Part shown: positions 26,504-33,714 of the stretch, in pieces
How the letters are laid out: each line of letters begins with the position of its first letter
How positions within the stretch are numbered: the first letter of the stretch is position 1
NCBI GenBank assembly: GCA_964016885.1
Contig: OZ024760.1
Location: forward strand, 25,234,001-25,298,000
Direction: 5' to 3'
Source: Eledone cirrhosa
Taxonomy: Eukaryota
DNA: 64,000 nt
Translations under genes and position numbers: made by a program
Notes under the pieces: generated by a model
The model's database searches: none
What the model saw: the letters and a program-made list of their open reading frames with translations, nothing else
Told to the model about the DNA's origin: nothing

Positions 26504-26821
26504 ATATATATATATATATATATATATATATATATATATATGTCTATATATATATATCTATTTATATATTTATATGTATGTATTTATTTATATAAATATA
26601 CAATTAAGTTAAAGTGTACATCTACATATGTATACGGAAGTATTAGTATGCATATAAATACACACATGTATACATATGTACATGTACTCAGCTTTTCACT
26701 AGACACTTTACAGTGAGTGTCAGCTAGTCTGTATGTAACCACACAGGCGGACCGGGTTTTAGAGTCATACGAGTTTTCAAGGAAACACATTTCCTCTATT
26801 CTCCAGAGGGCCAGACAGGAA

Positions 26822-26862
26822 TATTGGACTAGTTTCGATGTTATTACATCTCATCAGCAATA
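26822..26862 (-). ncRNA. Minimal type I hammerhead ribozyme, array A (repeated at 27291, 27760, 28229, 28698)
   Basis: Reverse complement reads tattg-CTGATGA-gatgt(aata)acatc-GAAA-ctag-TC-caata in each monomer. Confidence 0.92.
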
Positions 26863-29223
26863 TTTACCCATCTTCCGGCTTCTCTGGAGAATTGTAAAAG
26901 CACATATCGTTATATGCTTTTTCTATGAAAATTAGTAGTGGGTAGACTAATTTGCATAGAACGTGAGTCATTGTACGCACCGGTTCAGCGGAAACGATAA
27001 AAACAAATAACGAAACGAAATTAAATTTCGTTTCGCTTCTAACTCACTTTTGTATGACTGACGCTTAAACAATTAAGTTAAAGTGTACATCTACATATGT
27101 ATACGGAAGTATTAGTATGCATATAAATACACACGTGTATACATATGTACATGTACTCAGCTTTTCACTAGACACTTTACAGTGAGTGTCAGCTAGTCTG
27201 TATGTAACCACACAGGCGGACCGGGTTTTAGAGTCATACGAGTTTTCAAGGAAACACATTTCCTCTATTCTCCAGGAGGCCAGACAGGAATATTGGACTA
27301 GTTTCGATGTTATTACATCTCATCAGCAATATTTACCCATCTTCCGGCTTCTCTGGAGAATTGTAAAAGCACATATCGTTATATGCTTTTTCTATGAAAA
27401 TTAGTAGTGGGTAGACTAATTTGCATAGAACGTGAGTCATTGTACGCACCGGTTCAGCGGAAACGATAAAAACAAATAACGAAACGAAATTAAATTTCGT
27501 TTCGCTTCTAACTCACTTTTGTATGACTGACGCTTAAACAATTAAGTTAAAGTGTACATCTACATATGTATACGGAAGTATTAGTATGCATATAAATACA
27601 CACATGTATACATATGTACATGTACTCAGCTTTTCACTAGACACTTTACAGTGAGTGTCAGCTAGTCTGTATGTAACCACACAGGCGGACCGGGTTTTAG
27701 AGTCATACGAGTTTTCAAGGAAACACATTTCCTCTATTCTCCAGGAGGCCAGACAGGAATATTGGACTAGTTTCGATGTTATTACATCTCATCAGCAATA
27801 TTTACCCATCTTCCGGCTTCTCTGGAGAATTGTAAAAGCACATATCGTTATATGCTTTTTCTATGAAAATTAGTAGTGGGTAGACTAATTTGCATAGAAC
27901 GTGAGTCATTGTACGCACCGGTTCAGCGGAAACGATAAAAACAAATAACGAAACGAAATTAAATTTCGTTTCGCTTCTAACTCACTTTTGTATGACTGAC
28001 GCTTAAACAATTAAGTTAAAGTGTACATCTACATATGTATACGGAAGTATTAGTATGCATATAAATACACACATGTATACATATGTACATGTACTCAGCT
28101 TTTCACTAGACACTTTACAGTGAGTGTCAGCTAGTCTGTATGTAACCACACAGGCGGACCGGGTTTTAGAGTCATACGAGTTTTCAAGGAAACACATTTC
28201 CTCTATTCTCCAGGAGGCCAGACAGGAATATTGGACTAGTTTCGATGTTATTACATCTCATCAGCAATATTTACCCATCTTCCGGCTTCTCTGGAGAATT
28301 GTAAAAGCACATATCGTTATATGCTTTTTCTATGAAAATTAGTAGTGGGTAGACTAATTTGCATAGAACGTGAGTCATTGTACGCACCGGTTCAGCGGAA
28401 ACGATAAAAACAAATAACGAAACGAAATTAAATTTCGTTTCGCTTCTAACTCACTTTTGTATGACTGACGCTTAAACAATTAAGTTAAAGTGTACATCTA
28501 CATATGTATACGGAAGTATTAGTATGCATATAAATACACACATGTATACATATGTACATGTACTCAGCTTTTCACTAGACACTTTACAGTGAGTGTCAGC
28601 TAGTCTGTATGTAACCACACAGGCGGACCGGGTTTTAGAGTCATACGAGTTTTCAAGGAAACACATTTCCTCTATTCTCCAGGAGGCCAGACAGGAATAT
28701 TGGACTAGTTTCGATGTTATTACATCTCATCAGCAATATTTACCCATCTTCCGGCTTCTCTGGAGAATTGTAAAAGCAAATATCGTTATATGCTTTTTCT
28801 ATGAAAATTAGTAGTGGGTAGACTAATTTGCATAGAACGTGAGTCATTGTACGCACCGGTTCAGCGGAAACGATAAAAACAAATAACGAAACGAAATTAA
28901 ATTTCGTTTCGCTTCTAACTCACTTTTGTATGACTGACGCTTAAACAATTAAGTTAAAGTGTACATCTACATATGTATACGGAAGTATTAGTATGCATAT
29001 AAATACACACATGTATACATATGTACATGTACTCAGCTTTTCACTAGACACTTTACAGTGAGTGTCAGCTAGTCTGTATGTAACCACACAGGCGGACCGG
29101 GTTTTAGAGTCATACGAGTTTTCAAGGAAACACATTTCCTCTATTCTCCAGAGGGCCAGACAGGAATATTGGACTAGTTTCGATGTCATTACAATTCTCC
29201 AGAGAAGCCGGAAGATGGGTAAA

Positions 29224-29264
29224 TATTGCTGATGAGATGTAATGACATCGAAACTAGTCCAATA
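29224..29264 (+). ncRNA. Minimal type I hammerhead ribozyme, array A inverted arm; predicted cleavage after GUC at 29259
   Basis: tattg-CTGATGA-gatgt(aatg)acatc-GAAA-ctag-TC-caata: complete core, stem I, stem II and palindromic stem III. Confidence 0.92.
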
Positions 29265-30186: not shown

Positions 30187-31933
30187 TTTACCTATCTTCC
30201 GGCCTTTCTAGAGAATCGTAAAAGCACATATCGTTATATGCTTTTTCTATGAAAATTAGTAGTGGGCAGACTAATTTGCATAGAGCGTAAGTACGTACCG
30301 GTTCAGCGGAGACGATAAAAACAAATAACAAAACGAAATTAAATTTCGTTTCGTTTGTAACTCACTTTTGTATGACTGACGCTTAAACAATTAAGTTAAA
30401 AATGTACATCCACATATGTATACTGAAATACTAGTATGCATATGAATACACACACGTGTACATATGTAGATGTACCGAGTTTTTCACTGGTCACTTTACT
30501 GTGAGTGTCCAGCTATTCTGTATGTAAACACGCAGACAAACCGGTTTTTAGAGTCATACTGGTTTTTGAGGAAACACCTTTCCTCTATTCTCCAGAAAGC
30601 CAGACAAGGAATATTGGACTAGTTTCGATGTTGTTACATCTCATCAGCAATATTTACCTATCTTCCGGCCTTTCTAGAGAATCGTAAAAGCACATATCGT
30701 TATATGCTTTTTCTATGAAAATTAGTAGTGGGCAGACTAATTTGCATAGAGCGTAAGTACGTACCGGTTCAGCGGAGACGATAAAAACAAATAACGAAAC
30801 GAAATTAAATTTCGTTTCGTTTGTAACTCACTTTTGTATGACTGACGCTTAAACAATTAAGTTAAAAATGTACATCCACATATGTATACTGAAATACTAG
30901 TATGCATATGAATACACACACGTGTACATATGTAGATGTACCGAGTTTTTCACTGGTCACTTTACTGTGAGTGTCCAGCTATTCTGTATGTAAACACGCA
31001 GACAAACCGGTTTTTAGAGTCATACTGGTTTTTGAGGAAACACCTTTCCTCTATTCTCCAGAAAGCCAGACAAGGAATATTGGACTAGTTTCGATGTTGT
31101 TACATCTCATCAGCAATATTTACCTATCTTCCGGCCTTTCTAGAGAATCGTAAAAGCACATATCGTTATATGCTTTTTCTATGAAAATTAGTAGTGGGCA
31201 GACTAATTTGCATAGAGCGTAAGTACGTACCGGTTCAGCGGAGACGATAAAAACAAATAACGAAACGAAATTAAATTTCGTTTCGTTTGTAACTCACTTT
31301 TGTATGACTGACGCTTAAACAATTAAGTTAAAAATGTACATCAACATATGTATACTGAAATACTAGTATGCATATGAATACACACACGTGTACATATGTA
31401 GATGTACCGAGTTTTTCACTGGTCACTTTACTGTGAGTGTCCAGCTATTCTGTATGTAAACACGCAGACAAACCGGTTTTTAGAGTCATACTGGTTTTTG
31501 AGGAAACACCTTTCCTCTATTCTCCAGAAAGCCAGACAAGGAATATTGGACTAGTTTCGATGTTGTCTCTAAAAACCGGTTTGTCTGCGTGTTTACATAC
31601 AGAATAGCTGGACACTCACAGTAAAGTGACCAGTGAAAAACTCGGTACATCTACATATGTACACGTGTGTGTATTCATATGCATACTAGTATTTCAGTAT
31701 ACATATGTGGATGTACATTTTTAACTTAATTGTTTAAGCGTCAGTCATACAAAAGTGAGTTACAAACGAAACGAAATTTAATTTCGTTTCGTTATTTGTT
31801 TTTATCGTCTCCGCTGAACCGGTACGTACTTACGCTCTATGCAAATTAGTCTGCCCACTACTAATTTTCATAGAAAAAGCATATAACGATATGTGCTTTT
31901 ACGATTCTCTAGAAAGGCCGGAAGATAGGTAAA

Positions 31934-31974
31934 TATTGCTGATGAGATGTAACAACATCGAAACTAGTCCAATA
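31934..31974 (+). ncRNA. Minimal type I hammerhead ribozyme, array B inverted arm (repeated at 32400-32440)
   Basis: tattg-CTGATGA-gatgtaacaacatc-GAAA-ctag-TC-caata. Confidence 0.92.
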
Positions 31975-33714
31975 TTCCTTGTCTGGCTTTCTGGAGAATA
32001 GAGGAAAGGTGTTTCCTCAAAAACCAGTATGACTCTAAAAACCGGTTTGTCTGCGTGTTTACATACAGAATAGCTGGACACTCACAGTAAAGTGACCAGT
32101 GAAAAACTCGGTACATCTACATATGTACACGTGTGTGTATTCATATGCATACTAGTATTTCAGTATACATATGTGGATGTACATTTTTAACTTAATTGTT
32201 TAAGCGTCAGTCATACAAAAGTGAGTTACAAACGAAACGAAATTTAATTTCGTTTCGTTATTTGTTTTTATCGTCTCCGCTGAACCGGTACGTACTTACG
32301 CTCTATGCAAATTAGTCTGCCCACTACTAATTTTCATAGAAAAAGCATATAACGATATGTGCTTTTACGATTCTCTAGAAAGGCCGGAAGATAGGTAAAT
32401 ATTGCTGATGAGATGTAACAACATCGAAACTAGTCCAATATTCCTTGTCTGGCTTTCTGGAGAATAGAGGAAAGGTGTTTCCTCAAAAACCAGTATGACT
32501 CTAAAAACCGGTTTGTCTGCGTGTTTACATACAGAATAGCTGGACACTCACAGTAAAGTGACCAGTGAAAAACTCGGTACATCTACATATGTACACGTGT
32601 GTGTATTCATATGCATACTAGTATTTCAGTATACATATGTGCATGTACATTTTTAACTTAATTATATATATATATATATATATATATATATATATATATG
32701 TATGTATATTTATTTATATATATATATATATATATATATATATATATATATATATATATATATATATATATATATATGATAATAAGGGCGCTGCGGAGTT
32801 GCAAATGGGTTACACATGAAAAAAGTTTGTCCTTCATCAGTAATCTTCCAACTATCATAGGCATTTCATCGCTTTAAAGACCATATACCTCCGGTTGGTG
32901 CGAGCAACGGCTAAAAAAAGTCGTTGGGACACGTAAATAAAGGGGACCCGAGGGTAAACAAACAAAATGGTGGGGCAACAGAAAGTGAGGAATAAGGAGA
33001 CGAAGGTGAAATGCAAAGAAGCGACGAAGAATTTATGAGGGAAAGAGAAAAATAAATATTTTGTAAAGATTGCTTAAAATATTCCTTGAGAGGCTGATCT
33101 TATGTTTTTCAAGAAAAGACAAAAATATAACAACGAAAGAGTTAAAGAATAAATACGTGAATGGCGGCGAAGGTGGAGTTGGTAGGAGGTGGTGGTGGTG
33201 GTGCTGCTGTTCGGTTGTAGTGCTGGTGGCGGTGGTGGTGGTGCTGGTGGTTGGTGCTGGTGGTGGTGATGCCAATGGCGGCGATGGTAGTACTGGTAGG
33301 TGGTGGATGAGGTGAAGTGAAATGGAATGAATTATAGAGTTTTTTGGAATAAATATATACACAAAGCAAATGTAAATAATCATGGCGGAATTGTAGGGAT
33401 GTAAGGGGATGGTTGGGTGGGGGTGGGGGGGGGGGGGCGATATTTGAAGTGAGAATACTGGATAGAAATGCAATTAGATCGGAAGAAATATGAGATAATT
33501 GATGAAAAAAAAAAAGAAGCACTAGAAGAAGAAATCTTTGGCAAAAAAAGAACAAACTCCACGAAAAAATTATACGATGATGGAATTAGAAATGAATTTA
33601 AATATATATATATATATATATATATATATATATACATATAAATATATATATATATATATATATATATATATATATATATATATATATATATATATATATA
33701 TATATATATATATA

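What the first reader, a model, noticed from the sequence alone, without database searches (positions are those of the whole stretch)
26600..32663. Two fixed 3' end-points about 74 nt apart, used reciprocally by the two arms of each array
Seen: array A's left arm ends at ..AACTTAATTG|TATA (26600) and its right arm at ..TATTTGTTTTTAT|ATA (29552). Array B is the reverse: left arm ..TATTTGTTTTTAT|ATA (29849), right arm ..AACTTAATT|ATA (32663). Neither end is the HHR cleavage site. The segment between them holds the hairpin cgaaacgaaattt-aatttcgtttcg. Inference: two defined internal priming sites, one per target strand, with the intervening hairpin as a likely RT recognition signal, analogous to the PLE pLTR 'tail'.
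Basis: partly seen in the sequence, partly recalled or inferred. Interest (0 to 1): 0.85.

Follow-up and report, generated by a model that had tools for sequence, protein, structure and literature searches.

The report
Ribozyme repeat pasted from two starts
These two mirror-image arrays belong to a family of ribozyme-carrying repeats with well over a thousand insertions in this animal genome, and their two outer ends almost always stop at two different fixed points of the repeat unit, one each; this is the known one-sided 'tail' mark of Penelope-like jumping genes and likely records a borrowed enzyme copying the RNA from both strands of one cut.

Summary
Confirmed, and it holds genome-wide. 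Both arrays are head-to-head insertions of a non-coding 466-469-nt hammerhead repeat (retrozyme type) into (TA)n. One arm ends at E1 (monomer 463-467), the other at E2 (monomer 71), 70-74 nt further on.

Of 95 complete two-armed insertions, 88 have one E1 and one E2, 3 have two like ends and 4 have an odd end; 227 of 231 outer ends fall at E1 or E2. Insertions carry target duplications of about 12 bp. Both arms carry the same haplotype (0 of 41 differ, against 447 of 568 control pairs). A diverged sister family follows the same rule (19 of 23).

This is the published Penelope-like 'tail' plus inverted-copy signature, and two internal start sites are known in vitro. I found no paper on the near-strict one-of-each pairing, a tail this long, or its use by a retrozyme.

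Likely mechanism: twin target-primed reverse transcription by a borrowed Penelope-type enzyme. The hairpin's role has only indirect support, and no partner enzyme was found. This scan noted the same pattern before on other DNA.

The parts
26600..29193 (-). Array A left arm: about 5.5 units of the 469-nt hammerhead monomer; outer 3' end at E1 (monomer 465), inner end truncated at monomer 214
29189..29552 (+). Array A right arm: monomer 165-466 plus the tail to E2 (monomer 71); 5-nt overlap with the left arm at the inversion point
29849..31566 (-). Array B left arm: about 3.7 units of the 466-nt monomer; outer 3' end at E2 (71), inner end at monomer 218
31567..32663 (+). Array B right arm: monomer 299-466 plus 2 units; outer 3' end at E1 (463)
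29481..29552 (+). One-sided tail of array A (E1 to E2, 72 nt)
29849..29922 (-). One-sided tail of array B (E1 to E2, 74 nt)
29512..29540 (+). 13-bp hairpin in the tail (monomer 31-59); repeated in every full unit, e.g. 29861-29889 (-), 31765-31793 (+), 32231-32259 (+)
29472..29485 (+). Predicted small 5-bp hairpin with E1 in its loop (also 31725-31738 and 32191-32204); a counterpart exists in the sister family
   Evidence: RNAfold; one of several possible folds
29217..29268 (+). Minimal type I hammerhead motif, predicted cleavage after 29259 (monomer 235); 11 copies in the two arrays (e.g. cores at 31939 and 32405 on +; 26857-31113 on -)
   Evidence: stem I covaries with the sister family; below Rfam gathering
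26587..26600 (+). Left copy of array A's target-site duplication (14 nt including overlap with the element ends)
   Evidence: sequence
29548..29561 (+). Right copy of array A's target-site duplication; its first bases overlap the U-rich end of E2
   Evidence: sequence
29553..29848 (.). Degenerate (TA)n tract between the arrays; (TA)n also flanks 26503-26599 and 32664-32777 (insertion target)
33716..34186 (.). Copy of a homologous 440-nt sister family, also head-to-head, with E1' on the left and E2' (59-nt tail) on the right

Best explanation
The arrays are insertions of a non-coding hammerhead repeat whose two arms end at two different fixed points and are flanked by a duplication of about 12 bp, likely because a borrowed Penelope-type enzyme cuts (TA)n on both strands and starts one reverse transcript from each cut end, one at E1 and one at E2 (twin priming). 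Shown: the two end classes, their one-of-each pairing, scattered inner ends with short overlaps, the target duplication, and the same haplotype in both arms. Inferred steps: (1) the hammerhead-sense RNA, probably often a circle, is the template. (2) A PLE RT/GIY-YIG protein, probably a dimer, binds the tail region. (3) Each 3' overhang pairs weakly with a U-rich site ending in UUUA; E1 and E2 are sibling motifs of this kind, one in the loop of a small hairpin and one just 3' of the large hairpin. (4) Both cDNAs run 5'-ward for a variable number of units and are joined by microhomology, which gives the head-to-head array with the tail on one side only. If one primer stalls at once, a one-armed copy results.
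For: 88 of 95 complete two-armed insertions are E1/E2 (81 of 87 after removing loci chosen by their ends), and 227 of 231 outer ends fall at E1 or E2. 42 of 43 junction pairs on C1 are one of each. 9 of 41 'one-armed' copies hide a tiny second arm, all 9 of the opposite class. Sister family: 19 of 23, the other 4 with an odd end. Target duplications of 8 nt or more in 24 of 48 informative flanks vs a shuffled mean of 12.0 and maximum 17; clean cases are 11-14 bp (L061, L076, L047, L099, L038, L068, L187, L234, array A). The duplication overlaps the U-rich end of E2, and E1 ends step by 2 nt, as expected for a (TA)n primer annealed in one register. Inner ends scatter over monomer 3-452 with mostly 0-6 nt overlap. 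Arms never differ by a fixed allele (0 of 41; control 447 of 568 same-subfamily pairs), and 13 of 83 insertions carry an allele seen in no other tested insertion and present in all units of both arms. Template polarity: hairpin variant A42G, which still pairs on the hammerhead-sense strand, occurs in 231 units and its mirror T48C in 8; L204 has 9 sense A>G changes, all with a 5' A/U neighbour and 4 in the hairpin. Published parallels: a purified PLE cuts and extends both strands, starts internally at two sites that bound the tail, and is predicted to dimerise (PMC11167929).
Against: No autonomous partner with a homologous tail was found, so the enzyme is inferred from the footprint. The unit-by-unit test for one RNA molecule was mixed: end-register sharing in L106 and L196 (L046 fits both registers), centre-symmetric sharing in L055, L171 and array A site 226, neither in L226, and periodic variants confined to one arm in L222, L219, L052 and L053. 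Template hopping, several RNAs or later DNA events must therefore contribute. Three same-end insertions exist (L089, L105, L219). The family-wide A>G excess is not significant without L204 (19 vs 14 T>C). The 231 A42G units come from a few lineages and are not independent. A stem-breaking variant recurs in 3 loci. 23 of 48 informative flanks gave no duplication by my test.
Confidence: 0.68

Rival explanations
1. Same enzyme and same two starts, but each subunit of an asymmetric dimer holds its own RNA molecule, usually from the same source locus; one subunit always starts at E1 and the other at E2.
For: Periodic variants confined to one arm (L222: period 3 in the E1 arm only; L052, L053). Two direct junctions with sister-family sequence (L058, L181), although these may be secondary insertions.
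Against: 0 of 41 arm pairs differ by a fixed allele vs 79% of control pairs. Insertion-private alleles are present in both arms in 13 of 83. One-of-each pairing needs an extra rule here, whereas one RNA gives it for free.
Confidence: 0.17
2. One priming event only: the cDNA, or an antisense RNA, folds back to make the inverted arm, and the endonuclease later resolves the intermediate at a second fixed site, which creates or trims the tail (the self-priming and resolution ideas in PMC3846280 and PMC8557442).
For: Centre-symmetric shared variants in L055, L171 and array A; some near-perfect palindromic centres.
Against: The two inner ends fall at unrelated monomer positions, and either arm can be the longer. 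Variants shared in end register (L106, L196) do not fit. E1 ends step in the phase of a TA primer, and E2 overlaps the target duplication. Variant polarity favours the hammerhead-sense strand as the folded RNA. The PLE in vitro data show extension of both strands (PMC11167929).
Confidence: 0.11
3. The ends are DNA-level or assembly artefacts: a satellite breaking, or being mis-joined, at AT-rich spots next to (TA)n.
For: Both ends are AT-rich and have 1-5 nt of microhomology with the flank.
Against: The monomer has other TA-rich stretches that are not used (4 of 231 ends elsewhere). One-of-each pairing and target duplications are not predicted. An independent run shows the same junctions. The sister family and three unrelated elements in the window show the same one-sided extension.
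Confidence: 0.03

Closest known systems
EN+ Penelope-like element insertion signature: inverted 5'-truncated copy plus a 30-40-bp 'tail' on one end (Craig et al. 2021, PMC8557442, passages read; PMC3846280, passages read)
   Same: Head-to-head arms with 3' ends outward, an extension on one end only and on either side, (TA)n targets, target duplications of about 8-10 bp where visible, and a minimal type I hammerhead.
   Different: Tail is 70-74 nt (59 in the sister family), not 30-40. Both arms are tandem arrays of a non-coding unit. The papers call the tail 'optional' or 'often only at one end' and give no pairing count; here it is 88 of 91.
Poseidon_Ac (PAc) in vitro TPRT (Frangieh et al. 2024, PMC11167929; main text parts 1-3 of 4 read; supplement search found no text hits; figures not seen)
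   Same: Two internal RT start sites that bound the tail, not at the hammerhead cut; both target strands cut and extended; AT-rich target; start in a stem-loop; predicted dimer.
   Different: PAc starts in an AC-rich stem-loop without homology to the target. Here both starts are U-rich and can pair with the TA primer. The paper reports no start-site difference between strands and does not test pairing of the two sites within one insertion.
Metazoan non-LTR retrozymes (Cervera and de la Pena 2020, PMC7229834, passages read; Li, Clavereau and Pollet 2026, 10.64898/2026.07.22.740005, parts 1-3 of 5 read)
   Same: Non-coding tandem units with a type I hammerhead in each, dispersed copies, proposed PLE mobilisation and circular RNA template.
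   Different: PMC7229834 has no occurrence of 'inverted', and the parts of the 2026 preprint I read describe no insertion ends. The hammerhead here is the minimal PLE-type variant. Cleavage, circles and expression were not tested here.
LINE-1 twin priming (recalled from general knowledge, not from a call)
   Same: Two target 3' ends prime on the RNA and the cDNAs join by microhomology, giving an inversion.
   Different: In L1 the second start is variable and the arms copy different stretches. Here both starts are fixed, 70-74 nt apart, and both arms copy the same repeat.

Membership tests
PLE-type insertion signature | Inverted 5'-truncated copy, head-to-head, 3' ends outward | tested here: met
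   97 of 139 insertions are two-armed in this layout, inner ends scattered
PLE-type insertion signature | Extension (tail) on one end only, on either side | tested here: met
   88 of 95; left and right equally often, 23 vs 21
PLE-type insertion signature | Tail length 30-40 bp | tested here: not met
   70-74 nt; 59 nt in the sister family
PLE-type insertion signature | AT-rich or (TA)n target with target-site duplication | tested here: met
   (11-14 bp in clean cases; not visible in 23 of 48 informative flanks)
Autonomous PLE | RT plus GIY-YIG ORF | tested here: not met
   Arms consist only of 466-471-nt tandem units; no such ORF continues from an arm in loci L031-L106
Metazoan non-LTR retrozyme | Tandem non-coding units, each with a type I hammerhead | tested here: met
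   Motif and fold; stem I covariation with the sister family; 3131 exact cores; not at Rfam gathering level
Metazoan non-LTR retrozyme | Self-cleavage and circular RNA in cells | not testable with these tools
   No RNA run available; indirect hints only (insertion-private alleles in all units; periodic variants)
Metazoan non-LTR retrozyme | Homology to the pLTR of an autonomous PLE of the same genome | tested here: inconclusive
   Only non-coding relatives found in a limited search
Twin priming on a single RNA | Both arms copied from one molecule, in register from the two starts | tested here: inconclusive
   Same haplotype met; unit register mixed

The most novel reading that the evidence does not exclude
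Penelope-type enzymes integrate by obligate, site-paired twin priming: a dimer on one structured RNA tail places its two RT sites at E1 and E2 and copies one (often circular, sometimes A-to-I edited) RNA from both strands of a 12-bp staggered cut. This single rule would explain the PLE tail, the inverted copy and retrozyme tandem arrays, and the 74-nt tail would be a portable cis-signal sufficient to recruit the enzyme.
Probability: 0.4. Interest if true: 0.75.

Novelty: new variant of a known kind. Interest (0 to 1): 0.5.

Why it matters
How PLEs form their tandem/inverted insertions and one-sided tail is named as an open problem in PMC8557442. PLE mobilisation of retrozymes is so far proposed from co-occurrence and homology (PMC7229834; 10.64898/2026.07.22.740005). 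This family gives a quantitative footprint for both questions: one start of each kind per insertion, a duplication of about 12 bp, and one haplotype in both arms. It also offers a 466-nt protein-free substrate with two mapped start sites for an in vitro test. The layout itself is textbook PLE and would not surprise a specialist; the near-strict pairing rule and the direct PLE footprint on a retrozyme are the increments.

Tried and rejected
Rfam scan of the window: no match at gathering level.

Search for an autonomous partner: six-frame scan of loci L031-L106, a pattern for other hammerheads with the same short stem III and a three-sequence nhmmer profile over loci L001-L166 and the window. 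These gave only the sister family and two older non-coding relatives. The search was limited and is not proof of absence.

Expression: no RNA holder listed; no conclusion drawn.

Unit-register test for a single RNA: inconclusive. I dropped L082, L085, L087, L102 and the array A 260/261 sites once polarised, because the 'shared' allele was the family majority; L101 was set aside as too divergent from the reference.

Family-wide A>G test: 27 vs 15 T>C in both-arm variants (p = 0.06), 19 vs 14 without L204; not claimed as general.

Hybrid insertions with the sister family (L058, L181): rejected as evidence, since L058 is E2'/E2 and may be a secondary insertion, and L181 runs into masked sequence.

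Rows left out of counts: L080 (duplicate of L079), L065 and L066 (no copy), L039 and L228 (two-armed, cut by fetch edge), L232 (cut by fetch edge); in the sister tally, 6 overlapping or duplicate loci and 2 edge-cut arrays.

A Pfam scan of two neighbouring ORF remnants gave no result, so their clade is open.

Literature: 7 searches found no paper on paired use of the two starts or on PLE twin priming. Subscription papers are not covered, and the supplementary figures of PMC11167929 (S1, S2) and the supplements of the bioRxiv preprint could not be seen and may bear on this.
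Full report
WHAT IS THERE. Window 26600-29552 (A) and 29849-32663 (B) are two separate insertions in (TA)n. Each has two arms of a tandem unit (469 nt in A, 466 nt in B, about 89% alike) in opposite orientation. Each full unit carries a minimal type I hammerhead motif. Rfam does not reach gathering on it, but its stem I covaries with a sister family. Read on the hammerhead-sense strand, both arms point outward. With monomer position 1 at window 31735, the predicted cleavage site is 235, E1 is 463-467 and E2 is 71 of the next unit. 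A ends at 465 (left) and 71 (right); B ends at 71 (left) and 463 (right).

The window lies in a 3.0-Gb assembly, G000. Exact E1-(TA) and E2-(TA) junction patterns match 1406 and 2080 times, against reversed controls of 12 and 0. The E1 pattern covers only two of the E1 sub-positions (73 of 111 ends in my sample), so the two totals are probably similar. The hammerhead core matches 3131 times. Pairing the 178 listed junctions on C1:1-130 Mb gave 43 outward-facing pairs under 15 kb apart, 42 of them one of each. I then fetched loci chosen by similarity to the unit, by the hammerhead core or by a hairpin variant, plus 7 chosen from the junction lists, and mapped the arms. Of 139 insertions, 95 are complete and two-armed: 88 E1/E2, 2 E1/E1, 1 E2/E2 and 4 with an odd end. 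Two more were cut by the fetch edge and 42 were one-armed. Without end-selected loci and the window the count is 81 of 87. 227 of 231 outer ends lie at E1 or E2. Nine of 41 scorable one-armed copies hide a tiny second arm, always of the opposite class. Inner ends scatter across monomer 3-452 with mostly 0-6 nt of overlap (104 ends). In an independent run, the two loose ends with most contigs among those shown are TA runs at E1 and E2, so the junctions are not an assembly product.

GENERALITY. A homologous 440-nt sister family (window 33716-34186; alignment) ends at the corresponding positions: a sharp E2' at 59 and a fuzzy E1'. 19 of 23 two-armed copies are one of each and 4 have an odd end. 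Three unrelated elements in the window also show a one-sided extension.

CUT GEOMETRY AND PRIMING. Where flanks are not pure TA, a duplication of 8 nt or more touches both junctions in 24 of 48 cases (shuffled mean 12.0, maximum 17 in 200). The clean cases are 11-14 bp, including array A; 23 of 48 gave none by this test. The duplication overlaps the U-rich end of E2, and in L076 it replaces a tail base in a way a G.U pair would allow. E1 ends come in 2-nt steps (463, 465, +2). I infer that both 3' overhangs of one staggered cut act as primers and anneal weakly to two sibling U-rich motifs ending in UUUA. The sister family likewise has one short motif at both starts.

ONE TEMPLATE? In 41 insertions with at least two units per arm, none shows a fixed difference between arms, against 447 of 568 cross-insertion pairs within a subfamily. 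Thirteen of 83 carry an allele found in no other tested insertion and present in all units of both arms, as copying round one circle would give. The finer unit-register test is mixed: end register in L106 and L196, both registers in L046, centre-symmetric in L055, L171 and array A site 226, neither in L226, and one-arm periodic variants in L222, L219, L052 and L053. 'Same source' is therefore well supported and 'same molecule' is not shown.

THE HAIRPIN. The tail folds far better than shuffles and the stem is near-certain in the folded circle. The tail holds 2 of 51 A/B differences, and within-family variation is 0.44-0.49% against 0.7-1.7% elsewhere, although the hairpin alone in B is 0.71%. 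Run X1 shows no variant at 10% or more between 32176 and 32279. The variant A42G, which keeps pairing only on the hammerhead-sense strand, occurs in 231 units and its mirror in 8, but the 231 come from a few lineages. L204 carries 9 sense A>G changes, 4 in the hairpin (p = 0.001) and all with a 5' A or U (p = 0.02), which resembles A-to-I editing (the neighbour rule is recalled). The excess is not significant family-wide without L204. A stem-breaking variant recurs in 3 loci, and the sister hairpin is shorter. A second, small hairpin places E1 in its loop in both families. The tail is thus a conserved structured RNA element on the inferred template strand; that the large hairpin is what the RT recognises is plausible and untested.

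COMPARISON WITH WHAT IS KNOWN. [quoted passage not shown] PMC3846280 (passages) describes a 31-bp tail on one inverted pLTR with 8-10-bp duplications and proposes antisense self-priming. PMC11167929 (parts 1-3 of 4) shows a PLE protein cutting and extending both strands and starting at two internal sites that bound the tail, independent of hammerhead cleavage, with no start-site difference between strands. PMC7229834 (passages) and the 2026 preprint (parts 1-3 of 5) propose PLEs as the retrozyme partner without describing such ends. The feature works like, and meets most marks of, the PLE signature. It fails the published tail length and is not an autonomous PLE. It meets the sequence definition of a non-LTR retrozyme; cleavage and circles are untested. 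Seven searches found no report of the pairing rule. Earlier AI notes of this scan report the same pattern for this and other repeat families; I treat them as leads, not support.

VERDICT. A real, strong, genome-wide rule. The layout is known; the near-strict one-of-each use of two starts, the long tail and the PLE footprint on a retrozyme are increments that make twin priming directly testable. Confidence 0.68 for twin priming by a PLE-type enzyme, 0.17 for the two-RNA version, 0.11 for fold-back with resolution, 0.03 for artefact. Interest 0.5.

Noticed in passing
window 11583-13282: Unrelated hammerhead-bearing element in (TA)n with 570-nt inverted arms (99.7% alike) and an extension of about 56 nt on the right arm only.
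   Followed up: partly
window 59369-61046: Another hammerhead-bearing element with 587-nt inverted arms (92%) and an extension of about 64 nt on the left arm only.
   Followed up: partly
window 26313-26505 and about 58530-58721: Short palindromic insertions of a further family with the same extension of about 78 nt on the left side only.
   Followed up: partly
window 45757-46288: Perfect 532-bp palindrome (100%, no spacer) beside (TA)n; other sequence continues to the right before the next TA run.
   Followed up: no
L204 (G000:C5:63.088-63.096 Mb): Long two-armed insertion with clustered sense A>G changes in both arms and alternating unit types; candidate copy of A-to-I edited RNA.
   Followed up: partly
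L222 (G000:C1:56.387-56.398 Mb) and L219 (C1:363.102-363.108 Mb): Very young arrays with one A>G variant recurring with period 3 (L222, E1 arm only) or period 2 (L219), as a multimeric circle or block duplication would give. L219 is also the only E2/E2 insertion.
   Followed up: partly
L059, L083, L103, L082, L102: The inversion point falls in the tail hairpin itself, so the hairpin can serve as the join between the arms.
   Followed up: no
L081, L097: The inner end of a one-armed copy is joined to a short inverted copy of the flanking target DNA, which suggests a template jump onto the target.
   Followed up: no
L058, L181: Direct junctions between this family and the sister family; template switch or secondary insertion.
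   Followed up: partly
L148:105-420, L089:1320-1600: Older, more distant non-coding relatives of the same hammerhead repeat lineage.
   Followed up: partly
window 41947-43081: 222-nt inverted arms (95%) around a short tandem of a different repeat.
   Followed up: no
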